IMG/VR virus record: IMGVR_UViG_3300028920_000032
Location: 32,001 to 96,000 of that record
Reading direction: 5' to 3' (one strand)
DNA: 64,000 nt
Source: a virus
Shown here: positions 2,340 to 57,871 of the stretch, one piece after another
How positions within the stretch are numbered: position 1 is the first letter of the stretch
Layout of the letters: each line of letters starts with the position of its first letter
Translations under genes and position numbers: made by a program
The notes under the pieces: generated by a model
Databases searched by the model: none
What the model saw: the letters and a program-made list of their open reading frames with translations, nothing else
Told to the model about the DNA's origin: nothing

Positions 2340-2816
2340 TTATTCAAATATACTCTTTATCAATTTATAATAATCTTTATGTTCAATAGGCCAACCATTT
2401 GTATTTATATAAAATTCAAAATTATTTATTCTAGCTAAAGCTCTGCCTTCTTTGAAATTGCCAACATCATCATAAATTATAGGCGTTGTCACTTTGCCAT
2501 TTAGATCAATATGGCCATATTTACCATTTTTCTGCTGGACCCAAGCTCTGCCTTCAGAGAAATAGCCAACATCATCATAAATTATTGGCGTTGTTATATT
2601 GCCATTTAGATCAACATGACCACATTTGCCATTTTTCTTAACCCAAGCTCTGCCTTCTTGGAAATAGCCAACACTATCATAAACTATAGGCGTTGTCACT
2701 TTACCATTTAGATCAACATGACCCTCTTTACCATTTTTCTGGACCCAAGCTCTGCCTTCATTGAAATAACCAATGTTATCTAAATTTAATTTTTTCTTTA
2801 TTTGTTCTTTAGTCAT
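2340..2816 (-). CDS. WG (KWG-Leptospira-type) repeat protein, paralog A
   Basis: Tandem ~35-aa repeats FxEGRAWVxKNGKxGHVDLNGKVTTPIIYDDVG. Confidence 0.9.
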   Translation of the reverse strand: MTKEQIKKKLNLDNIGYFNEGRAWVQKNGKEGHVDLNGKVTTPIVYDSVGYFQEGRAWVKKNGKCGHVDLNGNITTPIIYDDVGYFSEGRAWVQQKNGKYGHIDLNGKVTTPIIYDDVGNFKEGRALARINNFEFYINTNGWPIEHKDYYKLIKSIFE

Positions 2817-3189: not shown

Positions 3190-3555
3190 TTACATACCTT
3201 CTGGAATATCATAATTTAAAGTTATTTCTTCAGTTTCAGTGTTATCAATTCTTTGAGTATATAGATGTATTCTTAAAGCATGGTCTTCTTCTATATATTC
3301 AGTTTGAACTTCAATAATTTTTATTCTAGTTTCTATTTCAGCTAATTTACTATGTATTTCTACTGCTAAATCTTGTAAAGTATCTGCAGTTATTGGCATA
3401 AAGACTTTGTTTCTCATTCCTACACCAAATGTTGGCCTCATTACACGTTCACCTGGAGTAGTCATAAGTATTCTTATTATTGATTCATAAATTAAATCTT
3501 TGCCTTGTTTAATAGAAAACCAATTTTTGTTATAGAAGCCAATGCCCCTAGCCAT
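3190..3555 (-). CDS. Baseplate wedge protein, gp25-like
   Basis: ESIIRILMTTPGERVMRPTFGVG...ETRIKI motif. Confidence 0.92.
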   Translation of the reverse strand: MARGIGFYNKNWFSIKQGKDLIYESIIRILMTTPGERVMRPTFGVGMRNKVFMPITADTLQDLAVEIHSKLAEIETRIKIIEVQTEYIEEDHALRIHLYTQRIDNTETEEITLNYDIPEGM

Positions 3556-3633: not shown

Positions 3634-6600
3634 TTATGTCGGTAAATCTACTGGTCTTATCCCTTCAACTATATTAGAATATTCGCTTTCTCTAACAATT
3701 CTTCCAGCTACAACTTCTACGGCTTTTACTTTATAATATTCTGGAACTCCAATAAGAGCTCCAGTGCCAGAAGCTGCTTTTGCTAAGCCATCAGTGAATA
3801 AATCTAGCCAATTTGTACCAAATGTACCTTTTGTAATACTTATTGTTGCCCTTTCACCCTTAGCATTGCTAGTAAATTTAATTCGATAAAATATACCATC
3901 ATGAGGATGTTCTAATTCAACTAGTTCACAAGTTAGATTATTTAAACCATTTCCAAAAGCTGTATTAAGACTATTTACCATGTTTTGACAAGTCCATGTC
4001 CCCGATGCTGGTGATGTAATATAATATTGATAAATAGTTGGCAAATATGTATCTTCTGCTGTAACCATAACAATTAAATAATATCTTATATTTGCTGTAT
4101 AATCAGTATCAGCAATTCCATCGCTTGTTGAAGAAAAAGAATCTAATAAATATTGTTCAGCAGGATATTGATCTATAAAAGTTATATTAGTTTCTATATA
4201 TTCATTTCCATCATCCTGTGAAACATAACTAAATGGGGAAGTTTCAGCAGGAGCTTTATATATTACATAACCATTTGCGCCAGATAAAGAATTCCAATTT
4301 AGTGTAACTTTTTCTTTATCTGTTGTTGTAGCTGTTAATGTAATAGTTTGCCACAATCTTTTACCATTTGAATTTTCAGTTATTTCTGACATTTCTGATT
4401 CATATTCTATAGTTAAATTATTTGAATCATCATAGTATTCATATTCACTTGAATCAGCAACGGCTGTAATTCTATACCAGTATGCTAATCCTGGGAGAGC
4501 ATTTGTATCTTCATAATAAGTATTTGTCGTATTATCAATTAAAATATATCCACTAGTTCTTAATGTTGATCTATAAATATAATATTTAGATGCATTAACA
4601 GCAGCATCCCATTCTATTCTAGCATGTAAACTACTTGGGGTTACGCCATTATCGTGTATTCCGCCAACTTTTATATTTTCTGGAGGATTCCAAAGTATAG
4701 CTCCAGTTTCACCATGAGTTGTTTTATCTCCACTATATTCTTCACTATGCCACTGTGACATACTATCCCAATCTTTGTCATTTATTGTACCACCACCAAG
4801 TGTAACATCACCACTGGCACTCCATCCATTATCAACTTGTATACGATAATAATAAATTTTACCTTCTTCTAAATTAGTGACACCAGCAACTGCACTGTCT
4901 GGCGTTGTACTTAATGCTGTAAATAGATCAATTCCTACTGTACCAGCTGTTAATGCGATGGATGAGGAGCTTCCATATGTGTTGGATGTAATTCTTATAT
5001 CAGTACTTTCAATAGTCGAACTAAATCCATATTCTTCTTCTTCAGCAAGTTCATTTATTATATTTGCTAATGCTTCCCAAGATTGACAATCAGCTCCAAT
5101 CAATACTATTTCAATTGCACTAGCTCCATCAACTGAAACTTTAAAACTATATTGCGTCATATTATTATTAAGCGGAGGAGTAGCATTAAGATCTGCAAAA
5201 TTTAACCCAAATTCTTGATAACCTTGATAAGCCGCTATGTCTTCTAATATATTTCTAGGATTTTGGAAGAAATCATAATTTGGTGGATCACCTGGATCAG
5301 TATAATCATATTGTGATGAATTACCATAAGGAGTTGTAAATGTATTCCATGATCCATTTTGACCTTCTTTTCTTTCAATTCTATAGCTAGAAGCAGAAAC
5401 TACAGAATCCCACTCTAAAATAATCCTGTCTGATTCCGTCGTAGATATTGTTATATTTAATGGAGATATGTCATAAGTTTTAGCATTGGTTATTACATTA
5501 TCCATTAAATCTTCTAAATCTTGAATTTCATTATCTGGAGTTGTTCGTATTGCAGATACATAAGCATCATAATAACCACGATATGCCATAGATAGTGATC
5601 CACTAGTTCTATTTAATCTTTGATTAACAAAATACCATTTCCAATAGTATAATTTACTACCATAAAGTGTGCCAGAATTATTTTCATTAGCTGCTGAATT
5701 TGTTGTTGGTTTCCAAGATTCACTTGAACCAAGTTGGTACCAAGTATCATTTGTAGCATGTTTTCCAAGTAGTTGATATATTTCTTCTCTTCTGTCTGGT
5801 ATGTCCCCAGATTGTGCACCACTATATGAGCTTCCAGAGAAAGCAATTAAAGCATTTAAATGAGTTGTTATTAATGCATCTAAATCATCATCATCCCATC
5901 TTGAATCATTTTCATCCCAGTCATTTGTGGCGGGATCACCTACTGCTGATTTCCAGTTACTTAACCAAGAAGACCAACTTGTATTCATTGTATTTGCTGC
6001 ACTTTTTCCAGGATCTGTTAAGTTTGTTTTCTCGTTTATAACTTCATAATTATATCCAATAATATCATTTAAATCTGATTGAATTGTTGATATAAGGGAG
6101 CTAATTGCATCTATTCTAGTTTCAAATTCTTCATGATATTGACTATATACTGAGCTCCAAATATTTTCACGACCGTCAGAAGCTGTTCCTTTTTTAACTG
6201 TGTCAATCATTGTTGGGTTTTTTATGAATTCTCTTTCAGCATCAAGATCTTCATCACTAAGATCTCCATCACCAGGAGTTGGCCAATAAGCATCAGTATA
6301 TGTATAATTCCACTGATATGGACTAATTCCACTATATGATGCACTATCAATATATATTATCCACCCTTCATCTGTAGCAGATGCGTCATATACTGCATAC
6401 CACCCTTCTCCAGCTAAAGGGTCTGGATCTCCCGCTCCACATGATATATGAAAAGATCCAGTAGTTGTACCTGAATGACCGGCAATTATCTCTGTATATT
6501 CTGAAGATGTTCCATTACCTGTTCCCCAATATGTATATCTCATTCTTTCAAATGGACTTGGGCTAGTTTCTGGCGCGCCAGCATCAATATCATCTATACC

Positions 6601-7296
6601 ATAATCTCCTAATGTTGAATCTAATCTAGTAAAGCCTGCATCTACATGAGTTGTATATGAATCTATTAAAATATTTGTTCTATAAACCCATCTACCATCA
6701 TATATAATTTTTCCCCAAAGTAAATTATTCTCGTCACCATAATGTTCTAATGGTTCTTTCATAGTAAAGTTCGAACCTGTTTCAAATGGGTTGGCTGCAT
6801 TTGTATATACTGTGCTTGGTTCAGCATTAATCCAAGCTACATCATCATCTGAGCCTAAGCTACTATATTTTTGATTTAGCAATACAAATGGATGTCTTTG
6901 GTATGGAACTTCTTTAGCATTAAATCTCATATATTCATAAGTGCTTAAAGTAGATATGTCAGTAAAAAAGAATTCTTCTTGTTGTCTTGATGCATCTGCA
7001 TTTTGCCACCATGTATTTGTTGGTGGTATATTAGGAGGATCATTAGTTTCACTTGGAGATAAATTAGCGGCTGAATCATAAACATAACCAATCATATGTT
7101 TAAGTTCATCATAGTGTTCAACTATTAAATCATTTATATGTTTATAGCAAGCTTCTAACAAATATGTTTCTGGTTGTCCAGTTGAAATAGTTCCATCTCC
7201 GTCTATGATATCTGTATAATATTCATAATTAGTGATTCCATTATAATATTTTTGTATTAAGTTTGCGCGTTGTTCTTTTTGACTTTCAGCTTCCAT
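3634..7296 (-). CDS. Large virion/baseplate-associated protein with fibronectin type III-like repeats
   Basis: Repeated LxW..V..A..YxIxR and Y(W/Y)YRI motifs; lies in the baseplate module. Confidence 0.65.
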   Translation of the reverse strand: MEAESQKEQRANLIQKYYNGITNYEYYTDIIDGDGTISTGQPETYLLEACYKHINDLIVEHYDELKHMIGYVYDSAANLSPSETNDPPNIPPTNTWWQNADASRQQEEFFFTDISTLSTYEYMRFNAKEVPYQRHPFVLLNQKYSSLGSDDDVAWINAEPSTVYTNAANPFETGSNFTMKEPLEHYGDENNLLWGKIIYDGRWVYRTNILIDSYTTHVDAGFTRLDSTLGDYGIDDIDAGAPETSPSPFERMRYTYWGTGNGTSSEYTEIIAGHSGTTTGSFHISCGAGDPDPLAGEGWYAVYDASATDEGWIIYIDSASYSGISPYQWNYTYTDAYWPTPGDGDLSDEDLDAEREFIKNPTMIDTVKKGTASDGRENIWSSVYSQYHEEFETRIDAISSLISTIQSDLNDIIGYNYEVINEKTNLTDPGKSAANTMNTSWSSWLSNWKSAVGDPATNDWDENDSRWDDDDLDALITTHLNALIAFSGSSYSGAQSGDIPDRREEIYQLLGKHATNDTWYQLGSSESWKPTTNSAANENNSGTLYGSKLYYWKWYFVNQRLNRTSGSLSMAYRGYYDAYVSAIRTTPDNEIQDLEDLMDNVITNAKTYDISPLNITISTTESDRIILEWDSVVSASSYRIERKEGQNGSWNTFTTPYGNSSQYDYTDPGDPPNYDFFQNPRNILEDIAAYQGYQEFGLNFADLNATPPLNNNMTQYSFKVSVDGASAIEIVLIGADCQSWEALANIINELAEEEEYGFSSTIESTDIRITSNTYGSSSSIALTAGTVGIDLFTALSTTPDSAVAGVTNLEEGKIYYYRIQVDNGWSASGDVTLGGGTINDKDWDSMSQWHSEEYSGDKTTHGETGAILWNPPENIKVGGIHDNGVTPSSLHARIEWDAAVNASKYYIYRSTLRTSGYILIDNTTNTYYEDTNALPGLAYWYRITAVADSSEYEYYDDSNNLTIEYESEMSEITENSNGKRLWQTITLTATTTDKEKVTLNWNSLSGANGYVIYKAPAETSPFSYVSQDDGNEYIETNITFIDQYPAEQYLLDSFSSTSDGIADTDYTANIRYYLIVMVTAEDTYLPTIYQYYITSPASGTWTCQNMVNSLNTAFGNGLNNLTCELVELEHPHDGIFYRIKFTSNAKGERATISITKGTFGTNWLDLFTDGLAKAASGTGALIGVPEYYKVKAVEVVAGRIVRESEYSNIVEGIRPVDLPT

Positions 7297-20249: not shown

Positions 20250-20571
20250 GTGGTAATATCAATTATAACAAAGAAAAATAAAAAAGAGATATTAGTCAAA
20301 TCATATAAAATTATAAATAAAAAAATTATTATAAATGGTGATTATACAATCAAACGAATGGACTATATTAAATATGAATGCAAAAAGTGTAAAAATATAA
20401 CAAAAGAAAAATTTAAGTTAAAAGTGAACTTTCTTGATGAGTTGTATATTTGCTCAAGCTGTAAAAGGAAGCTGTAAAAGGAAGCTGACTTGTATATCTA
20501 AATATGGTACAGATAGTATTAACAAAGTAACTGCAATTATTCACTCTTATTCTCATTTAATTGTTTCCTAA
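20250..20571 (+). pseudogene. Frameshifted remnant of a zinc-finger / TC..KYG-repeat homing-endonuclease-like gene
   Basis: Has GCATA motif and GGGAGG SD; two CxxC pairs; a 13-bp tandem duplication creates the stop at 20477; without it the frame continues CKRKLTCISKYGTDSINKV. Confidence 0.5.
20456..20487 (+). repeat. 13-bp tandem duplication AAGCTGTAAAAGG x2.5
   Basis: Seen directly in sequence. Confidence 0.9.
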
Positions 20572-20920
20572 TTTGTGCTTTCTTTTCAATAAGAAACCTA
20601 TAAGTCATTCTTACAATATCTCTTCTATGCATTCCTTCTTTAAGCATCTTTAATGCCTTTTGTTCTAGTTTAATGTGGCACTCATCACATAAAGTAATAA
20701 GATTACGATCATTGTTTGTTTGACTTATTCTCAATAAAATAATATGATGCGCATTAAGCTTCTTAACTTGTGATTTATGTCTGCCACATGCTCTGCATCT
20801 ATAACCATCTCTTTTATAGACTAATTCACGTATATCATCCCAACGCGGACCATATCTTTTCTTTCTGTTTAAACGTTCCCAGCGCTTTTTTTGTTTGTTA
20901 GATACACGTTTCTTGTTCAT
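20537..20920 (-). CDS. HNH endonuclease
   Basis: RDGYRCRACG...AHHI...NLITLCDECH. Confidence 0.92.
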   Translation of the reverse strand: MNKKRVSNKQKKRWERLNRKKRYGPRWDDIRELVYKRDGYRCRACGRHKSQVKKLNAHHIILLRISQTNNDRNLITLCDECHIKLEQKALKMLKEGMHRRDIVRMTYRFLIEKKAQIRKQLNENKSE

Positions 20921-22965: not shown

Positions 22966-23151
22966 TTATTCTGGTTTCTTTTTCTTAACTTTTTTCTTTT
23001 TATTCATCTTTCGTTTTTTATATTTAAAGTTTTTTCTGATTTCAGAATCTTCTTTACTTTTCAGCCAAAACTTTGAAACATGTCTTTTTGCAAAATGAGG
23101 GTCTAATTGTGTTAACATTTCAGTCAATTTAATTGCTTCATTTAACTTCAT
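22966..23151 (-). CDS. Small basic protein, putative head-internal (MKLNEA...)
   Basis: Lys-rich tail and MKxxE N-terminus. Confidence 0.55.
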   Translation of the reverse strand: MKLNEAIKLTEMLTQLDPHFAKRHVSKFWLKSKEDSEIRKNFKYKKRKMNKKKKVKKKKPE

Positions 23152-23302
23152 CTTTTTTCTTTTTCCTTTTTTTCTTTTTCGTGCTTTTAATAGCCGTATA
23201 TCCAGCTGGTACTTTTCTTCTAACTATTGGACTAACTCTTTTTTTGATACCTTCTACATCTGCTGCTTGTGTTGCTATTTCAAGCGCTTCCTGAAATTTC
23301 AT
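23138..23302 (-). CDS. Small basic protein not in the ORF track (MKFQEALEIATQAADVEG...KKKKRKKKKDEVK)
   Basis: Manual translation, 54 aa; AAGGAG SD; ATGA overlap with the upstream gene. Confidence 0.6.
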   Translation of the reverse strand: MKFQEALEIATQAADVEGIKKRVSPIVRRKVPAGYTAIKSTKKKKRKKKKDEVK

Positions 23303-24600
23303 TTTTTTACTCCTTTCAATTTTGTTTGTTGCGTACCAAACTTTCTCCTTATTGCACCGTACTTTCTTTGTAGAAAGAATTTACCAGGAACATCATGGAC
23401 TCTGAATGTCCATGTGTCTAATTTTCTATTCAGCTCTCCAACTCTAGCATCAAACCAAGCTTCACCAACCATCCTTAGTTTACCAGATATAAGAACTTCA
23501 TTATCTTTTGATGATGTTATGTCGACTATTTCGAAATTTGCTTTTCTTGTTGCAAAGAACTCTAATACCGTTCCTTCGAATATTCTATTTGCTGTACTAC
23601 AAGTTATACCTTTTTCTCTGAACAGAGCTTTCATTCCTGTTGAATTTATATCTTTAGTTAATTGAATTGCCAATTCATCTTCAGGTATTTCTAACTCTTC
23701 ACCTTTTTCACTTTTTGGATATTTGTGAGCTGCTTTTTCTTTTTTAATCTCAACTAATAAAGTTTTTAAATATTTTTGTAAGTTTAATTCTTCAAATTTT
23801 CCTTTTTCAAAATCTCGGAAATGTTTTAGAGTTAATCTAGCCAATTGTTCATCACTTGTAATTTTATAATTATCTAATAACCATTTAGCAAATTTTGTAG
23901 CAATTCCTTTTTTAGCTTCGAATTTGTCTTGAACTATTTGTACTATATCAGCCTGACGTTTAAAGTTTTCTTCAGCTCCAGCTTCTAAAGTTTTTATATC
24001 ACTTAATGCATCAACAACTTCTTCATCAGTGGCTACTTTAAAACTAGTTTTTTTGTTTTTAAGACGAGTGTCACTAGCTTTTAATGTTATTTCCCCAGCA
24101 TATGGAGTACTTACGTCAAATTTATCAACGTTAAATCTTATATCGTTGTTGCTTTCTTTCATCTTTATTCTGAATGTAGTATCTGCCGTCAGTGTTCCAT
24201 GCAATATAACTCTAAATTGAAATGGTCTATATCTAGCTGCACCATGATGTGCATCAGCTGTTAATTTAAATGATTTACCCATAGACTTAGCTAGGTCATT
24301 CATTATCCTTCCATCCATCAATGGAAGTAACCATACTTTCTTATCTTTTTCTTGCGGCCAGTCAGCACTGTCAACTGGAGGTTTCATATAATACATAACA
24401 TTAGTTGCAAGATATTGTATCTTTTTTGTAGTTTGAACATCATCAGCGGCAATATTTTGTGTTGGTACTTGTTGCTGCACTTGTTGTGGTTGCTGCGCTA
24501 CATTAGTAGGAGGCGTTGGTGTTTCTTCTGGAGGCTCTTGTTCAATTAATAAATCAAGCATCTTTTTGACTCTATTTTCAAACTTCTTTTTTCTAATCAT
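23299..24600 (-). CDS. Hypothetical, putative virion-internal protein
   Basis: N-terminal LLIEQE followed by a P/Q-rich linker. Confidence 0.55.
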   Translation of the reverse strand: MIRKKKFENRVKKMLDLLIEQEPPEETPTPPTNVAQQPQQVQQQVPTQNIAADDVQTTKKIQYLATNVMYYMKPPVDSADWPQEKDKKVWLLPLMDGRIMNDLAKSMGKSFKLTADAHHGAARYRPFQFRVILHGTLTADTTFRIKMKESNNDIRFNVDKFDVSTPYAGEITLKASDTRLKNKKTSFKVATDEEVVDALSDIKTLEAGAEENFKRQADIVQIVQDKFEAKKGIATKFAKWLLDNYKITSDEQLARLTLKHFRDFEKGKFEELNLQKYLKTLLVEIKKEKAAHKYPKSEKGEELEIPEDELAIQLTKDINSTGMKALFREKGITCSTANRIFEGTVLEFFATRKANFEIVDITSSKDNEVLISGKLRMVGEAWFDARVGELNRKLDTWTFRVHDVPGKFFLQRKYGAIRRKFGTQQTKLKGVKK

Positions 24601-24603
24601 TCT

Positions 24604-25227
24604 TTATTTCCTTTTTGTTATCGATTTATAGACTAAAGAACCAGCTCCAGCTAACGCTATCATAATGGAATATTTCATTTTAACAATGAATTTATTATAT
24701 TGCATATCAGCTTCATAGATAAACCAATTATAATTAACTTTTTTTAAAATTTTAAATTTATCTTTAAATAAAGTTTTTTGATTTTCTTTTAAGAATTTTT
24801 TAAATTTTTTTTCTATAAAACTTTTAAATGTTGCATGCGGAACTTTATTTGTTATAACAAGAGGCAATGATTTTTTCCATTTCCACTCTAATGTTCTTGG
24901 AAACTCATAGGAAACTTTTGGATTTTTTAGAAAATTATCTTTTAGCCATCGCATTGCTCTAAATGCCACTGTAATCCTACGACTTGTTATTTCTTTTACA
25001 AAAATATAGTCTTTCTTTATGTCATCACTGATAGTTTCTTCAATTTCTTTCTTTAACTCTTTTTCACTTATTTTGTCTTCACTCTTTGCAGTTACTGGCC
25101 AAATAGGGTTGACATAGAGAAGAAATTCATTTTTGTGTGATTCGTAATTATACCAATCAAAACTTTTAGGTTTGATTTTGTCTTTCTTCCCCATTTTTAA
25201 ATCTTTCTCTTGTAACAGTTTTTTCAT
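24604..25227 (-). CDS. Hypothetical basic protein (MKKLLQE...)
   Basis: ORF in operon. Confidence 0.55.
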   Translation of the reverse strand: MKKLLQEKDLKMGKKDKIKPKSFDWYNYESHKNEFLLYVNPIWPVTAKSEDKISEKELKKEIEETISDDIKKDYIFVKEITSRRITVAFRAMRWLKDNFLKNPKVSYEFPRTLEWKWKKSLPLVITNKVPHATFKSFIEKKFKKFLKENQKTLFKDKFKILKKVNYNWFIYEADMQYNKFIVKMKYSIMIALAGAGSLVYKSITKRK

Positions 25228-25591
25228 AACTTAAATCAAAAATTCTTCTATATTTGAAATCTGAAAAGAATCCTTCACCAGCAATATTGCGTGAAGTAAA
25301 TATTATTGTCGGTTCTCGACCGCGTATGGCTGAAATTTCGTTAATAATAAATACACATGCAATAGGAAGTCCAGGTAGATTTACCACAAACGGCTGATCG
25401 CTTAATATATACTTCTTTTGCTTTACTACTATATCATGACATTGTAAATATGGATTCTTTGACAAGTCTAGATTTACTTTAACCATGATCTGTTCACATG
25501 TCTTTGCGTCGACTTCTTCTTCGATGCTTTTTAACACTTCGTCTCTTAATTTCGCTCCGAAATTAAGTAAATATACTTTTTCATGAGACAC
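25166..25591 (-). CDS. Csx15-like protein (CRISPR type III-associated cOA-binding/ring-nuclease candidate family)
   Basis: By-eye colinear match to Csx15: LLNF..L..E.L..IE, V.VNLD..NP..Q...IV, VVNLPGL...IINEI....G..PTII, IFDL.....TRER; 141 aa. Confidence 0.65.
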   Translation of the reverse strand: MSHEKVYLLNFGAKLRDEVLKSIEEEVDAKTCEQIMVKVNLDLSKNPYLQCHDIVVKQKKYILSDQPFVVNLPGLPIACVFIINEISAIRGREPTIIFTSRNIAGEGFFSDFKYRRIFDLSYEKTVTRERFKNGEERQNQT

Positions 25592-25615
25592 AACTTACCA
25601 CCTTCATAAATAATA

Positions 25616-25628
25616 TTTTAATTATCTT
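25616..25628 (-). promoter_or_regulatory. Putative late promoter AAGATAATTAAAA
   Basis: Exact copy of the motif, upstream of the 25591-onward operon. Confidence 0.65.
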
Positions 25629-25643
25629 GATAAATTGCGTTAA

Positions 25644-26321
25644 TTACTCATAATATGCCCAATGATATTTCCCTGCTCTTTTATATTGTCCTCTACAACA
25701 TAAACAAATACTCGTATAATTAGTTTTTGTAATAATTGATGCTTCTTTCATGCTTTCAAAAATTTGGCCAGTGTCTAAATTTATAACTGATTTTGATAAG
25801 TTCTTTTTATGCTTTTCAGAAAGATGTTTACCATAATTAGGATGATTCTTACCCTTATTAGATTTAGATATCTTTCTCTTTGTTTTTTCAGAGCGACATT
25901 TTCCTTTAAGTGAATTGGATATTTTTTCTCTTGTTTCTGCAGAAGGATTTTTATTTGCATCTGATATTTTTTTCTTATGTTCATCAGAAAGTTTTACTCC
26001 CTTCTTAGCTTTGGACATCTTTTCTCTTGATTCTTTAGAATAATATTTATTTTTATTACCACCAGAATCTAGATTATAACCTTTAGGATGCATTGCATCT
26101 AATCTTTTTATCATTTCTTTTTCAAAATAATCAAGTAATTCTTCTGGTACTACAAAAACAAATATGCTAAAATTTTTAATACCATATTTTCTTAGCGCTC
26201 TATTAATTATTTGTTTTTTATTTCTTAAGTGGCTTTTTAAACGAATTGTAAAAGTTCGAGTCGTTTGACCTACATAACATTTATTGTTTATTTTATTTTC
26301 TAAAATATATATTTGAGGCAT
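25644..26321 (-). CDS. Free-standing GIY-YIG homing endonuclease with NUMOD3/NUMOD1 repeats
   Basis: QIYILENKINNKCYVGQT...GYNL; SKESREKMSKAKKG repeats; C-terminal SICLCCRGQYKRAGKYHW. Confidence 0.92.
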   Translation of the reverse strand: MPQIYILENKINNKCYVGQTTRTFTIRLKSHLRNKKQIINRALRKYGIKNFSIFVFVVPEELLDYFEKEMIKRLDAMHPKGYNLDSGGNKNKYYSKESREKMSKAKKGVKLSDEHKKKISDANKNPSAETREKISNSLKGKCRSEKTKRKISKSNKGKNHPNYGKHLSEKHKKNLSKSVINLDTGQIFESMKEASIITKTNYTSICLCCRGQYKRAGKYHWAYYE

Positions 26322-26340: not shown

Positions 26341-27339
26341 CTAGCTGAAAATTGCAGAAATTGTTGCAAACTCTTCTAATAAAGATAATAATTTATGTTT
26401 GAAATAGAATTTTTGGATTTCTTTCAGGTTGATTTTATCAACATCTACAAACAAAGATTTGTTAATAGTTAAATTTTTTAAGATTGGATTGTTGCTAATT
26501 TTGATAAGTGTCAAATTTCTTTTAATTATTTCTAAATTTTCTTTAACAATATTTAATTTATTTGATACATCTTTCTTTGTTTTCTTTGGAATAGCATTCT
26601 CTATTACATTAAGAATTTCTATGCCACTGGCTATCTCACGAGCTGCTTTAAGTGCTTTCTTTTCGCCAAAACCTGGAACACCTCCTATATCATCTGTTTT
26701 GTCACCCTTAAATGCTTTGTATATGACTACGTCATAATCTTTTGGTATGTTTACATAAATGTCTTTGATTGGGTGATATACTTTTACATTCTTAAATTCT
26801 TGAGCGATTTGTACAAGATCACTGTCAGATGAAACAATAATTACTGTATTATGTTTGCTTAAAAATTTAGAATATAAATATATAATGTCATCAGCTTCTA
26901 AGCCTTCGACACCAATTTGTGACATAGGATAATAATTTAAAACATTCTTAATTTCATTAATATTGTTAAAGAGAATTTCCCATATGGGATCATGTTCATA
27001 ATCGCGACGACATTTATAATCGGGATAAACTTGTTTTCTCCACTCATGTGAGTTTGGATTGTCCCAAGTCATTATAAATGTTCCTGTAAATTTTTTAAAA
27101 TGTTTGTGTAGCTTTCTAAAAAAAACTAGAAGCATCATCCCGCTAATTGCTTTATAATCTTCTTTTTCAATTTGAACATTTTGTTTTGCTTCTTTTTCTG
27201 CAACCCATACTGTCTTGCCTTTCTTTGTAAGAGACTCTACATATTGTTTAATTTTGTTTTTTAAGATTATTGATTTAGCTCTGTGAAATGCAATATGTGC
27301 AAGATTATTTCCATCTAATAATATATACTTTTCATCCAT
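26341..27339 (-). CDS. RNase H / 5'-3' exonuclease (FEN, T4 Rnh-like)
   Basis: LLDGNN, YPDYKCRR, EADDII, SSDSDL, GDKTDDIGGVPGFGEKKA. Confidence 0.93.
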   Translation of the reverse strand: MDEKYILLDGNNLAHIAFHRAKSIILKNKIKQYVESLTKKGKTVWVAEKEAKQNVQIEKEDYKAISGMMLLVFFRKLHKHFKKFTGTFIMTWDNPNSHEWRKQVYPDYKCRRDYEHDPIWEILFNNINEIKNVLNYYPMSQIGVEGLEADDIIYLYSKFLSKHNTVIIVSSDSDLVQIAQEFKNVKVYHPIKDIYVNIPKDYDVVIYKAFKGDKTDDIGGVPGFGEKKALKAAREIASGIEILNVIENAIPKKTKKDVSNKLNIVKENLEIIKRNLTLIKISNNPILKNLTINKSLFVDVDKINLKEIQKFYFKHKLLSLLEEFATISAIFS

Positions 27340-55594: not shown

Positions 55595-57871
55595 TTAAGC
55601 CCGAATTATTTGTATTGCAGGTTTGTTGCCTACTTCGCTAGGCCAGCATAATTTCAGCCAATTAGAGTCATTCTTTATTGCAATCTTTACTAATTGACCT
55701 TTAGTAAATTTACCAATAATATCTTTTCTGTTTTGTTCTCCAAATGCAAATACACTGATAGCTTCTCTGAAGTCTGTTATAGTAATGAGAACATACTCAT
55801 TACCACTCTTTTTAGATTTTTTTATTTTTACATCATCTATATAAGCAGCTAATACCCAAAGCTTTTTATCTTGATCTCGATCAGATATTGTTTTAAGTCC
55901 ACAATATTTTGTACCTTCTAATATATCTTTAAAACCATGAAATGAATATTTGCAATATTCATATTCTATTTGTATTAACTGGTAAATTTCAGGCATATTC
56001 TTTTGAAATTCATCTAATTCTTTTTTTATTTTTTTATCCCAAGATGTACCGCCACTTTTTAATACCTTCTTACCTTTCTCGGCTAAGTACAACAACCACT
56101 TATAAGGCCTTTCTTCAATAGTATCATCAAAATCAGCAGCACCAGAAAATATACAACCTTTTACTACCGATTTGTTTATTTTATTTTTGACTGCTTTTTT
56201 TAAGAAATCTTCCCAATTTTTATATGGTCTATACTTTATAATTGATTCAGCTCCTTTGCCAGTGTCTTTAATATAAGAAAGTGCGAAGTATATTCCATCT
56301 TTATCAGACTCAAATAGTATACCAGATTTATTAATGTTTGGCCGATGAACTTTAATTCCAGCTTTATTAATAGAATTGATGTATTTTCCTAATGAAGATT
56401 GTCCATGTTTTTCCTGGCCTCTATCAATAGTATTTAAAGAAGCAGTCCAGAATTCAAGAGGATAATAACATTTTAAATAAGCTTGGACATAACCCATTAG
56501 AGAATAAGCATATGAGTGTGGCATATTAAATGCATATTTTGCTTGAAGCATTATTTGTTTCCACTGATCATCAGCATATTTAGTAGCTTCTTTAATATCC
56601 CATCCATCTTCTCTCATTATTTTAGGAACAGCAGCATCCATGTACATTGATTGATATTTTTCACATTCTTTCAACATAGCTTGTCTGTTAGTATCAGAAG
56701 TTTTTGCTTTACCTATCTTTCTAACTAATCTTCTTAATCGATCAGCTTCAAAAATTGAGAAGTCAGCTAATTCCATAGGCACTTGCATTAATTGTTCTTG
56801 ATATATCATTAAGCCTCTAGTGTGGTTATATACACTATGTAAACATTTAGGCTCTCGTCTTTCAAGTGGTGCCGTCACATAATCATCTACTTCAGCCGCT
56901 CCAGGGCGAATTAATGTACTTATATTACTGATATCTTGTAGAGACTGTGGCTTGATTCTCCTAACCGCCTCTACAAACACTTTAGATTCCATTTGAAATA
57001 TATTATCAAGTTGTAATGTGTTAATAAACTTATACACTTTAGGATCATCTTGTGGTAGTAAATAAATGTCTTTAGGTAAATTATTCTTGGGATATTTATG
57101 ATTAATTTCTTCAACACATAAACGAATTTGTTCTACACATGCAAGACCCAAGATATCAACTTTGATTACTCCAAGAGCTTCCAATTCTTTTATTGCGCCT
57201 GACTCTTGCCAACCAGTAACATAACCTTTGTTTGCACGAATTATAGGAATGATATCAGTAAGATCGTCAGACGAAACGACGAAACCTCCTGCATGTTGTC
57301 CTACATTTTTCTTCATGCCAGTTAATTTCGTAAGAGATCTAGCAACTTCAGGATGCTTCTTCAAGAAATTATCAACTTCTGGATATTTTTCTCTAATTTC
57401 TTCTTCAGATAAATCTTTGTCATCATCAGAAACTAATTTGCTAATTTTTAAATAAGCAAACGGTGAAATCCCATAAACACGAGAAATTTCTTGGACAGAG
57501 CCTTTAACACCTAATGTTCCATATGTTCCTATTGAAACACAATTATCTTCACCGAATTTTTCTTTTAGCCAGGCTTTAATAGAATCACGACCACTCGGGG
57601 AGAAATCACAATCGACATCTGCCATGTCTGCTAACTGCCAATGATGTTGTAGTTTATCAGGATATGGAGCTATAGATAATAAATAAAATGTTAAAATGTT
57701 TTCATAATTTTTTTCTATTGTTTTTTTGTTGTTAAAAATAGAACAAATTTTTGATAAATCATCAGACTGCATTTTTAAAGCTTTAAGCTCTTCATCTAAA
57801 TAAGATTTCTCTTCATCAGATAATTTTTCTCTCTTCTTGGCTAAAAATTGAATCAATTCTCTTTTCGTCAT
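55595..57871 (-). CDS. dnaE: DNA polymerase III alpha, C-terminal half (catalytic palm, thumb, fingers, HhH, OB)
   Basis: ADVDCDF, GQHAGG, KVDILGL, IFQMES, IRPG, IYQEQLM, YAFNMPHSYAY, PNINKS. Confidence 0.93.
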   Translation of the reverse strand: MTKRELIQFLAKKREKLSDEEKSYLDEELKALKMQSDDLSKICSIFNNKKTIEKNYENILTFYLLSIAPYPDKLQHHWQLADMADVDCDFSPSGRDSIKAWLKEKFGEDNCVSIGTYGTLGVKGSVQEISRVYGISPFAYLKISKLVSDDDKDLSEEEIREKYPEVDNFLKKHPEVARSLTKLTGMKKNVGQHAGGFVVSSDDLTDIIPIIRANKGYVTGWQESGAIKELEALGVIKVDILGLACVEQIRLCVEEINHKYPKNNLPKDIYLLPQDDPKVYKFINTLQLDNIFQMESKVFVEAVRRIKPQSLQDISNISTLIRPGAAEVDDYVTAPLERREPKCLHSVYNHTRGLMIYQEQLMQVPMELADFSIFEADRLRRLVRKIGKAKTSDTNRQAMLKECEKYQSMYMDAAVPKIMREDGWDIKEATKYADDQWKQIMLQAKYAFNMPHSYAYSLMGYVQAYLKCYYPLEFWTASLNTIDRGQEKHGQSSLGKYINSINKAGIKVHRPNINKSGILFESDKDGIYFALSYIKDTGKGAESIIKYRPYKNWEDFLKKAVKNKINKSVVKGCIFSGAADFDDTIEERPYKWLLYLAEKGKKVLKSGGTSWDKKIKKELDEFQKNMPEIYQLIQIEYEYCKYSFHGFKDILEGTKYCGLKTISDRDQDKKLWVLAAYIDDVKIKKSKKSGNEYVLITITDFREAISVFAFGEQNRKDIIGKFTKGQLVKIAIKNDSNWLKLCWPSEVGNKPAIQIIRA

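What the first reader, a model, noticed from the sequence alone, without database searches (positions are those of the whole stretch)
25166..25628. Phage-encoded Csx15-like protein with no CRISPR locus in the window: candidate anti-type-III cOA sponge or ring nuclease
Seen: the 141-aa protein follows the Csx15 pattern along its whole length (LLNF...; VVNLPGL; E...G..P.I; I.DL...R.R). As I recall the family consensus, its histidines (NFSH, ELHG) are replaced here (NFGA, EISA). Known: Csx15 is a type III CRISPR ancillary protein in the group of proposed cyclic-oligoadenylate regulators. No cas genes or array occur in the window. The gene heads a late-motif operon of putative head-internal proteins. 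Inference: a captured host regulator reused as an anti-CRISPR, possibly non-catalytic and possibly packaged for injection, or re-targeted to another cyclic nucleotide.
Basis: partly seen in the sequence, partly recalled or inferred. Interest (0 to 1): 0.8.

Follow-up and report, generated by a model that had tools for sequence, protein, structure and literature searches.

The report
Catalytically disarmed Csx15 in large phage
A large uncultured phage carries a small, very strongly conserved relative of Csx15 (a bacterial protein that binds or cuts the cyclic-nucleotide alarm of type III CRISPR) that has lost the cutting residues but kept part of the binding site, so it most likely traps an alarm molecule; this is untested, and the general idea of viral Csx15 is already in print.

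Summary
Window 25166-25591 (minus strand) is a real 141-aa gene and a true Csx15 homologue: NCBIfam NF040560 gives E 1.7e-6 over the full length (28.2 bits, below the 35-bit cut-off), and profile-profile comparison with canonical Csx15 gives 99.7%. A profile built only from His-less relatives hits just three PDB sequences, all Csx15 domains. The AF2 model (pLDDT 91.5) has the Csx15 topology.

The catalytic His8, the 'ELHG' His and the catalytic tail Arg125 are replaced by A13, S87 and F131. The adenine-stacking aromatic (F112) and two tail basic residues (K124, R128) are kept. The 158-kb phage record, about 70% complete, has no Cas10, CRISPR array, AcrIII-1 or SAVED.

The gene belongs to a well-separated His-less clade. 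All the members whose contigs I read lie on phage-like contigs, often in replication or recombination modules. It is more conserved (68-72%) than the neighbouring flap endonuclease (42-45%). It has its own conserved promoter-like motif, shared with a baseplate gene and an M23 peptidase gene.

Best reading (0.45): a non-cleaving cyclic-oligonucleotide binder or sponge against type III CRISPR or CBASS signalling. The 'head-internal protein operon' and 'packaged' claims are unsupported.

Viral Csx15 ('AcrIII-3') and sponge-type Csx15 were published in 2026. This scan has noted similar phage Csx15-like genes in at least 19 other genomes, several of them also read as disarmed. I rate it a new variant of a known kind.

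The parts
25166..25591 (-). Csx15-like gene (141 aa, GTG start), His-less phage clade
   Evidence: ORF. NF040560 E 1.7e-6 over the full length. hhalign 99.7% against canonical Csx15. AF2 pLDDT 91.5 with b1-a1-b2-a2-b3-a3-b4-loop-b5-a5 topology. dN 0.22-0.28 with saturated dS against relatives.
25598..25604 (-). Shine-Dalgarno AAGGTGG, 6 nt before the GTG
   Evidence: Read from the sequence. The same AAGGTGG is present upstream of the homologues in L002, L005 and L007.
25619..25628 (-). Promoter-like motif AAGATAATTA, starting 37 nt upstream of the start codon
   Evidence: [AG]AGATAATTA occurs 9 times in the 158-kb record; 8 copies are intergenic and all point at the downstream gene. It is conserved upstream of the homologous gene in L002, L007 and L019, with a variant in L005. 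It also precedes the gp25-like baseplate gene and an M23 peptidase gene.
24604..25227 (-). Conserved downstream partner, 207 aa, hydrophobic C-terminal segment; its start overlaps the Csx15-like stop by 62 nt (29 nt if the second ATG is used)
   Evidence: ORF. Homologues follow the Csx15-like gene in L002 and L007 (35% identity), and in L005 after an inserted gene (37%). No Pfam or PHROG match.
23299..24600 (-). Conserved third gene of the block, 433 aa, function unknown
   Evidence: 28-33% identical homologues at the same relative position in L002, L005 and L007. No family or Atlas match.
25644..26321 (-). GIY-YIG/NUMOD3 homing endonuclease inserted between the flap endonuclease gene and the Csx15-like gene
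   Evidence: Pfam GIY-YIG plus NUMOD3, PHROG homing endonuclease. Absent at this place in L005, and replaced by a different 160-aa ORF in L002 and L007.
26341..27339 (-). 5'-3' exonuclease / flap endonuclease, the conserved upstream neighbour
   Evidence: PF02739 and PF01367, PHROG 107. Same neighbour in L002, L003, L004, L005 and L007.

Best explanation
The gene encodes a stand-alone Csx15-fold protein, a small Rossmann-like domain related to CARF and SAVED sensors. By homology it should form a dimer.

In characterised Csx15, a cyclic oligoadenylate is sandwiched between the 'head' face of one dimer and the arginine-rich 'tail' helix of the next, which drives head-to-tail stacking. His8 on the head and Arg125 on the tail then cut the ring.

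In this phage clade the two cutting residues and the second histidine are replaced (A13, F131, S87). The adenine-stacking aromatic (F112), the pocket leucine (L75) and two phosphate- or base-contacting basic residues (K124, R128) are retained and invariant.

I therefore propose that the protein binds a cyclic-oligonucleotide immune signal (cA4-like, or a CBASS-type tri- or dinucleotide given the remodelled pockets) without cutting it by the known Csx15 chemistry. It would withdraw the signal from host CARF/SAVED effectors, acting as a sponge that may work by ligand-induced stacking.

Shown: homology, fold, residue pattern, phage context, strong purifying selection and an own promoter-like element. 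Inferred: dimerisation, ligand binding, absence of cleavage and the anti-defence role.
For: Homology:
- NF040560 gives E 1.7e-6 over the full length, and all 35 family members hit it.
- The A1 profile retrieves bona fide Csx15 (P0088 and P0089, 115-117 bits on NF040560; P0089 is named Csx15 by NCBI).
- hhalign gives 99.7%.
- The His-less-only profile A6 hits only CbCash 9ylu, CliCsx15 9teu and PfCsx15 9tet in the whole PDB sequence set.

Fold:
- AF2 pLDDT 91.5, five strands and a C-terminal helix.

Residue pattern:
- H8 to A13: 32 of 32 in the close family; no His in any of 70 His-less rows.
- ELHG-His to S87, variable.
- R125 to F131.
- F106/Y113 kept as F112.
- R118 kept as K/R124.
- R122 kept as R128, invariant.
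The roles of these residues come from Klimavicius et al. and Chi et al..

Precedents:
- PfCsx15 acts as a cA4 sponge.
- The CbCash Csx15 domain has Gln at both His positions (alignment) and binds cA4 in a cryo-EM structure.
- HaCsx15 H8A still multimerises on cA4.

Constraint: 68-72% identity between relatives, against 42-45% for the flap endonuclease. dS is saturated.

No type III locus for it to regulate was found in the record.
Against: - PfCsx15 H11A and CliCsx15 H90A lose cA4-induced oligomerisation. Both positions are non-His here, so canonical cA4 binding may be impaired.
- The Arg37/Arg204 base-pocket residue is Asn40 here (my mapping).
- The clade has gained its own invariant residues: H52, D53, R116 (canonical Glu) and E123 (canonical hydrophobic). 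These could form a new catalytic or ligand site.
- Chi et al. note that type III systems make so much cOA that sponging may be fruitless.
- Conservation higher than a replication enzyme, and recurrent placement in replication or recombination modules, are unusual for anti-defence genes.
- The host is unknown, so there is no evidence that it has type III CRISPR or CBASS.
- The score is below the NCBIfam curated cut-off (28.2 against 35 bits).
Confidence: 0.45

Rival explanations
1. It is still a ring nuclease or phosphodiesterase, using a relocated active site (for example the clade-specific H52/D53 near the head loops, or E123 on the tail helix) in place of His8/Arg125. It would then be a true enzymatic anti-CRISPR or anti-CBASS of the proposed AcrIII-3 type.
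For: H52 is invariant in the close family (32/32) and nearly so in the sister clade (23/24). D53, R116 and E123 are likewise conserved, and all are absent from canonical Csx15. The sister clade retains the second His in 15 of 24 members. Csx15 enzymes have broad specificity, including CBASS signals. Authors argue that viruses should prefer enzymes to sponges.
Against: H8A and R125A each abolish activity in HaCsx15, and H13A does so in CliCsx15. Both positions are lost here. H52 is not conserved in the wider His-less clade (mostly Val). I had no coordinates to check whether H52 faces the ligand site.
Confidence: 0.18
2. It is a phage-own nucleotide receptor or regulator, not a decoy. It would sense a host alarm nucleotide, or another nucleotide or nucleic-acid end, and by oligomerising would control a phage process such as recombination nucleases, the overlapping membrane-anchored 207-aa protein, or late timing.
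For: It is more conserved than the adjacent flap endonuclease. His-less members recur next to nucleases: FEN here and in L002, L005 and L007; SbcCD, PD-(D/E)XK and a DNA methylase in L021; PD-(D/E)XK in L019 and L023; SbcCD nearby in L008. Its reading frame overlaps a conserved protein with a hydrophobic C-terminus. Csx15 domains serve as sensors in Cash and in TM, HTH and Csx1 fusions. Ago MID domains are among the top structural neighbours.
Against: Replication modules make up much of a large phage genome, so adjacency may be chance. The neighbour differs between clades. No fusion or strict pairing was shown. The 207-aa partner is separated by an inserted gene in L005.
Confidence: 0.2
3. It is a degenerate Csx15-fold protein that no longer binds nucleotides and acts as a structural or scaffolding protein of the late module, possibly virion-associated.
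For: The late-type motif is shared with the baseplate gp25 and M23 peptidase genes. The gene sits at the head of a same-strand block running towards the tail and baseplate genes.
Against: The invariant residues cluster on the loops that follow b1-b4 and on the tail helix, which are the ligand faces of Csx15. No virion-protein homology was found for it or its neighbours.
Confidence: 0.07

Closest known systems
Canonical CRISPR-associated Csx15 ring nucleases (HaCsx15, CsCsx15, CliCsx15 = PDB 9TEU; NCBIfam NF040560)
   Same: Same fold and length. Homologous over the whole length. Shares the N-F-G motif after b1, the N-L-P-G-L loop after b3, E85, G91/P94, the aromatic at 112, L120 and R128.
   Different: Lacks His8 (A13), the ELHG His (S87) and Arg125 (F131). 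Arg37 is Asn40. Has gained H52, D53, R116 and E123. Encoded by a phage with no type III locus. Scores below the curated family cut-off.
PfCsx15 (Pseudomonas fluorescens orphan Csx15, PDB 9TET; Chi et al. 2026)
   Same: Stand-alone, not linked to a CRISPR locus. Acts as a cA4 sponge that stacks head-to-tail rather than as an enzyme, which is the mechanism proposed here.
   Different: PfCsx15 keeps H11, H82 and the R116/R120/R123 triad, and needs H11 for binding. It is cellular. The match is only E 0.012 to the His-less profile, over residues 12-102.
Csx15 sensor domain of CbCash (Schlafen-Csx15, PDB 9YLU/9YLV; PMC13462974)
   Same: A Csx15 domain with non-His residues at both histidine positions (Gln in the alignment) that binds cA4 through aromatic stacking (F241 aligns with L75, F275 with F112). 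It is the best PDB hit of the His-less profile (E 6e-4).
   Different: Fused to an effector nuclease and used by the host as a sensor. cA4 does not bridge stacked dimers there. It keeps the Arg204 cation-pi residue (Asn40 here).
Viral Csx15 homologues 'vCsx15 / AcrIII-3' (Lokiarchaeota virus Skoll URC17498 and about 20 metagenomic sequences; Klimavicius et al. 2026)
   Same: Virus-encoded stand-alone Csx15 homologues proposed as anti-CRISPRs and not tested experimentally.
   Different: Those were found by BLAST with canonical queries, are described as rare and mostly in prophage regions, and are proposed to be ring nucleases. The clade here is about 25% identical to canonical Csx15, His-less, and found on large phage-like contigs. 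I could not check whether any of their ~20 sequences belongs to it, because the supplement is not held.
Phage cyclic-nucleotide sponges (Acb2, Tad1, Tad2) and viral ring nucleases AcrIII-1 (DUF1874) and AcrIII-2 (vSAVED, PDB 9R8S)
   Different: No sequence relationship to Acb2, Tad or AcrIII-1. AcrIII-1 and SAVED are absent from this record. vSAVED is a fused pseudo-dimer with a catalytic His.

Membership tests
Csx15 (NCBIfam NF040560) | Score at or above the curated model cut-off (35 bits) | tested here: not met
   28.2 bits, E 1.7e-6, full-length alignment. Relatives from the His-less clade do pass: P0070 37.5, P0073 57.4.
Csx15 (NCBIfam NF040560) | Homology to canonical Csx15 over the whole domain | tested here: met
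   hhalign 99.7%, E 8e-27, 123 columns. The His-less profile hits only Csx15 chains in the PDB. The profile search retrieves named Csx15.
Csx15 (NCBIfam NF040560) | Rossmann-like fold: five-stranded sheet, flanking helices, b4-b5 hairpin loop, C-terminal basic helix | tested here: met
Csx15 ring nuclease | Catalytic head histidine (HaCsx15/CsCsx15 H8, PfCsx15 H11, CliCsx15 H13) | tested here: not met
   The aligned position is A13: Ala in 32/32 close relatives, Ala or Ser in the sister clade, His in 11/11 canonical rows.
Csx15 ring nuclease | Second conserved histidine (ELHG; PfCsx15 H82, CliCsx15 H90) | tested here: not met
   The aligned position is S87, variable (A/T/S/E/C) in the close family.
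Csx15 ring nuclease | Tail arginine triad R118/R122/R125 (HaCsx15 numbering) | tested here: not met
   K/R124 and R128 are present, but the catalytic R125 position is F131 (F in 28/32). Basic residues at 130 and 132 flank it.
Csx15 (ligand binding) | Adenine-stacking aromatic (HaCsx15 F106, CliCsx15 Y113, CbCash F275) and pocket residue after b3 (HaCsx15 L71, CbCash F241) | tested here: met
   F112 and L75 are invariant in the close family, and position 112 is aromatic in all groups.
Csx15 (CRISPR-associated) | Genomic association with Cas10 / a type III locus | tested here: not met
   No Csm1 or Cmr2 match and no CRISPR-like array in the 158-kb phage record. The record is about 70% complete.
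Csx15 (function) | cA4-induced head-to-tail oligomerisation, cOA binding or cleavage | not testable with these tools
   Requires DLS, SEC or HPLC with purified protein, or multimer-plus-ligand modelling, which is not available here.
AcrIII-3 (proposed viral Csx15) | Virus-encoded Csx15 homologue | tested here: met
   IMG/VR virus record. Phage genes on all sides.
AcrIII-3 (proposed viral Csx15) | Inhibits type III CRISPR signalling as a ring nuclease | not testable with these tools
The catalytic residues of the cellular enzymes are missing.

The most novel reading that the evidence does not exclude
The His-less clade is not an anti-CRISPR decoy. It is a core phage cyclic-nucleotide (or other nucleotide) receptor. 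It would detect the host's alarm molecule, or a different and so far unknown ligand fitted to its remodelled head and tail faces (A13, N40, H52/D53, R116, E123, F131). By polymerising it would switch a phage process, such as the neighbouring recombination nucleases, the overlapping membrane protein, or late timing. In effect the phage would be eavesdropping on immune signalling.
Probability: 0.15. Interest if true: 0.85.

Novelty: new variant of a known kind. Interest (0 to 1): 0.55.

Why it matters
In early 2026 Csx15 was reported as absent from phage genomes, and that absence was used to argue it has no anti-CRISPR value. Later in 2026 it was reported as rare in viruses.

This locus belongs to a deep clade whose examined members lie on phage-like contigs: at least 68 clusters at 90% identity in the close family, at least 30 in a sister clade, and more distant groups. 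BLAST with canonical queries would probably miss it.

The clade has consistently lost the cutting residues, yet it is held under stronger constraint than a replication enzyme. If it is a sponge, it would be the first non-enzymatic viral countermeasure built on the CARF/SAVED-type sensor fold, and a test of whether sponging can work against type III CRISPR. If it is not a sponge, it points to a new use of this sensor fold by phages.

It also gives natural 'disarmed' variants for dissecting binding from catalysis in Csx15.

Tried and rejected
- Pfam gave no hit at E up to 10. PHROGs gave only a chance-level hit. PADLOC Csx15 was weak at 0.017.
- phmmer and the close-family profile A1 found no meaningful PDB hit. 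Only the broader His-less profile A6 and the canonical profile A3 reached 9teu, 9tet and 9ylu.
- The first AF2 model, from a shallow alignment, left residues 101-141 unmodelled. I replaced it with the 81-sequence model.
- Foldseek against PDB gave only weak SAVED, CARF and generic Rossmann rows, best E 3.6e-3. BFVD gave nothing clear.
- blastn and tblastn against 50,697 GenBank phages gave no relative of the gene.
- The IMG/VR pattern scan returned only one extra locus.
- The genome-contig scan with alignment A3 failed for lack of a conserved stretch. The single-protein scan found only Chloroflexota-type canonical Csx15, so HaCsx15 and CsCsx15 themselves were not retrieved. Residue numbering was instead transferred through P0089 (which has His at residue 8) and 9teu.
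- Sigma-70 promoter and terminator scans around the gene were at chance level.
- Host assignment failed. The DnaE fragment is closest to Cellulophaga and Moorella phages at about 30%, while strong AGGAGG use upstream of genes argues against a Bacteroidota host.
- I rejected 'not a gene' and 'recent capture from the host'.
- I rejected 'regulator of a phage-borne type III system', as far as the 70% of the genome in hand allows.
Full report
**1. Is the feature there?**

The minus strand of window 25166..25591 holds a 141-aa ORF with a GTG start. An AAGGTGG ribosome-binding site lies 6 nt upstream (sequence).

Sixty-eight clusters of close homologues (61-99% identity, 130-142 aa) exist in metagenome collections. 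They start at the same position with M or V. Against relatives, dN is 0.22-0.28 while dS is saturated. This is an expressed-type gene under strong purifying selection.

The window is bases 32001-96000 of a 158,329-bp IMG/VR virus record. The record has 30% G+C, is estimated at about 70% complete, and is transcribed almost entirely from one strand.

**2. Is it Csx15-like?**

Yes, well beyond chance.
- NCBIfam NF040560 (CAS_Csx15) aligns residues 7-129 to profile positions 1-123 of 125, at E 1.7e-6. The score of 28.2 bits is below the curated 35-bit cut-off.
- All 35 aligned family members hit the same model and no other.
- A profile of the phage family, searched against 1.8 billion representatives, returned 26 proteins. 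They form a continuum up to bona fide Csx15: P0088 and P0089 score 115-117 bits on NF040560, and NCBI names P0089 'CRISPR-associated protein Csx15'.
- Profile-profile comparison of the phage family with seven His-bearing Csx15 proteins gives 99.7% probability, E 8e-27, over 123 columns.
- A profile built only from His-less sequences hits exactly three sequences in the whole PDB sequence set, all of them Csx15 domains: CbCash 9ylu (6e-4), CliCsx15 9teu (2.7e-3, full length) and PfCsx15 9tet (0.012).

With an 81-sequence alignment AlphaFold2 gives pLDDT 91.5 and pTM 0.84. The topology is b1-a1-b2-a2-b3-a3-b4-loop-b5-a5, which matches the published description of HaCsx15.

**3. Residue anatomy**

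The functional roles come from two 2026 studies.
- In HaCsx15 and CsCsx15, H8 (head) and R125 (tail) are catalytic. R118 and R122 bind phosphates and bases. H8 and F106 stack adenines. R37 and L71 form the other base pocket.
- In PfCsx15 and CliCsx15 the same His (H11 and H13), a second His (H82 and H90) and the Arg triad matter for binding, stacking or cleavage.

Mapping through hhalign, the 81-row alignment and the HMMER alignment to 9teu and 9ylu:

| Canonical residue | This protein | Conservation |
|---|---|---|
| H8 | A13 | Ala 32/32 in the close family; Ala or Ser in the sister clade; no His in 70 His-less rows; His in 11/11 canonical rows |
| ELHG His | S87 | variable |
| R125 | F131 | Phe 28/32; Tyr or Phe in the sister clade |
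| R37 / CbCash R204 | N40 | Asn 32/32 in the close family (mapping approximate) |
| F106 / Y113 / F275 | F112 | aromatic in all groups |
| L71 / F241 | L75 | invariant |
| R118 | K/R124 | kept |
| R122 | R128 | invariant |

The clade has also gained its own invariant residues: H52, D53, R116 (Glu in canonical Csx15) and E123 (hydrophobic in canonical Csx15). The family's invariant positions cluster on the loops after b1-b4 and on helix a5. By homology these are the head and tail ligand faces.

**4. Phylogeny and distribution**

A maximum-likelihood tree of 55 sequences separates the His8-bearing group from a 43-row His-less group, with 95/87 support. Branches inside the His-less group are long. 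The loss of His8 is therefore old and maintained, not recent decay. Sampling is biased towards the phage side because the sequences came from a phage-centred profile.

Every His-less member whose contig I read lies among phage-like genes:
- This family sits directly downstream of a 5'-3' exonuclease (flap endonuclease), with gp32 further upstream.
- L021 lies between SbcCD-like genes and a DNA methylase, a PD-(D/E)XK nuclease, DnaB and DnaE.
- L019 and L023 lie near PD-(D/E)XK nucleases, with giant ORFs in L019.
- L008 lies near SbcCD-like genes.
- L022 lies among sugar-nucleotide genes and is ambiguous.

No homologue exists in 50,697 GenBank phage records at tblastn sensitivity.

**5. Local context in the window**

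In transcription order the genes are:
1. flap endonuclease (26341-27339)
2. a GIY-YIG/NUMOD3 homing endonuclease (25644-26321), absent at this position in relatives
3. the Csx15-like gene
4. a 207-aa protein whose start overlaps the Csx15-like stop and which has a hydrophobic C-terminus
5. a 433-aa protein

Genes 4 and 5 are conserved in this order in relatives but match nothing known.

Between relatives the Csx15-like protein is 68-72% identical. The flap endonuclease is 42-45% identical and the two downstream proteins 28-37%.

**6. The promoter-like motif**

The motif AAGATAATTA begins 37 nt upstream of the GTG. [AG]AGATAATTA occurs nine times in the record; eight copies are intergenic and all face the downstream gene. 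It is conserved upstream of the homologous gene in diverged relatives, including a sister-clade member.

It also precedes a gp25-like baseplate wedge gene and an M23 peptidase gene. A different motif, GCATAATTA, precedes nucleotide-metabolism and other genes. Timing itself was not measured.

Nothing supports 'head-internal proteins' or packaging.

**7. No system for it to regulate**

The 158-kb record has no Csm1 or Cmr2 (Cas10) match, no CRISPR-like repeat array, no AcrIII-1 (DUF1874) and no SAVED. The SAVED control search rang nowhere, so that particular negative is weak. About 30% of the genome is missing.

**8. Most likely mechanism**

By homology the protein should be a dimer that binds a cyclic oligonucleotide between its head face and the tail helix of another dimer. 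Both residues that perform cleavage in HaCsx15 are missing, so cleavage by the known chemistry is unlikely.

Three precedents make non-cleaving binding plausible:
- PfCsx15 is a cA4 sponge.
- HaCsx15 H8A still multimerises with cA4.
- The Csx15 sensor domain of CbCash, which has Gln at both His positions in the alignment, binds cA4 in a cryo-EM structure through aromatic stacking at the positions equivalent to L75 and F112.

I therefore favour a sponge-like binder that removes a host immune signal (confidence 0.45).

Several points weigh against this. PfCsx15 H11A and CliCsx15 H90A lose oligomerisation. The base pockets are remodelled. Chi et al. argue that sponging is poorly suited to the high cOA output of type III systems. 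These points make a CBASS-type or other low-abundance ligand at least as plausible as cA4.

A late, strong promoter would suit a stoichiometric binder. From my own knowledge of type III-A work in staphylococci, cOA-dependent effectors matter most when the target is late-expressed. Both statements are inference.

Rivals:
- an enzyme with a relocated active site using H52, D53 or E123 (0.18)
- a phage-own receptor or regulator, suggested by core-gene-like conservation and recurrent nuclease neighbours (0.20)
- a non-nucleotide structural role (0.07)

**9. Novelty**

Csx15 sponging and ring-nuclease activity, and the existence of rare viral Csx15 homologues with the proposed name AcrIII-3, were published in 2026. 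Earlier work had found no Csx15 in 28,114 phage genomes.

What this locus adds is membership of a deep, His-less Csx15 clade that so far appears phage-specific, with a consistent disarmed signature and unusually strong conservation. I could not check whether any of the roughly 20 published viral sequences belongs to this clade, because the supplement is not held.

This scan's own notes show similar phage Csx15-like findings in at least 19 other genomes, several read as disarmed. I saw those notes only after reaching the same reading. They gave me the lead to look for 9TET and 9TEU, which I then verified.

Verdict: new variant of a known kind; function untested.

Noticed in passing
window 25644-26321 (-): A GIY-YIG + NUMOD3 homing endonuclease is inserted exactly between the flap endonuclease gene and the Csx15-like gene. 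Relatives have nothing there (L005) or an unrelated 160-aa ORF (L002, L007). In L005 a DUF7487 gene is instead inserted just after the Csx15-like gene. The junctions flanking this gene look like a hotspot for mobile insertions.
   Followed up: partly
whole record G000; window 3607, 25628, 43153 and others: There are at least two distinct promoter-like motif classes. AAGATAATTA(A/T)A has 9 copies, 8 intergenic, and precedes gp25 baseplate, M23 peptidase, Lipase_3 and Csx15-like genes. GCATAATTA has 10 copies, all on the coding strand, several of them before nucleotide-metabolism-region genes. A third form, GTTTCGA-N-TATAATTA, lies near the right end of the record.
   Followed up: partly
window 22966-23151 (-) and 23138-23302 (-): Two small overlapping-end ORFs (61 and 54 aa) with similar N-termini and lysine-run C-terminal tails lie just downstream of the 433-aa gene. 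They may be DNA-binding or internal proteins. No family search was run on them.
   Followed up: no
P0078 (locus L025:4496-5347) and P0091: These are tandem duplications of the Csx15 domain in one polypeptide. P0078 has two His-less copies (VLNFGGAL, VLNFGDKL) related to the P0081/P0087 subclade. That makes it a pseudo-dimer of the kind proposed as the route from Csx15 to SAVED, here arising within the His-less branch.
   Followed up: partly
window 20537-20920 (-): An HNH homing-type endonuclease sits in the block between the Csx15-like gene and the structural genes.
   Followed up: no
record-wide and window 55595-57871: AGGAGG-type Shine-Dalgarno sequences are strongly enriched upstream of genes (13 observed against 1.8 expected), which argues against a Bacteroidota host. 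Yet the closest cultured relatives of the DnaE fragment include Cellulophaga phages, at about 31% identity. The host remains unresolved.
   Followed up: partly
window 3190-3555 (-), 2340-2816 (-), 3634-7296 (-): A gp25-like baseplate wedge protein, a WG-repeat protein and a 1220-aa protein with a weak tail-protein match mark the structural module at the left end of the window. Most large ORFs between 7 kb and 20 kb match no known family.
   Followed up: partly
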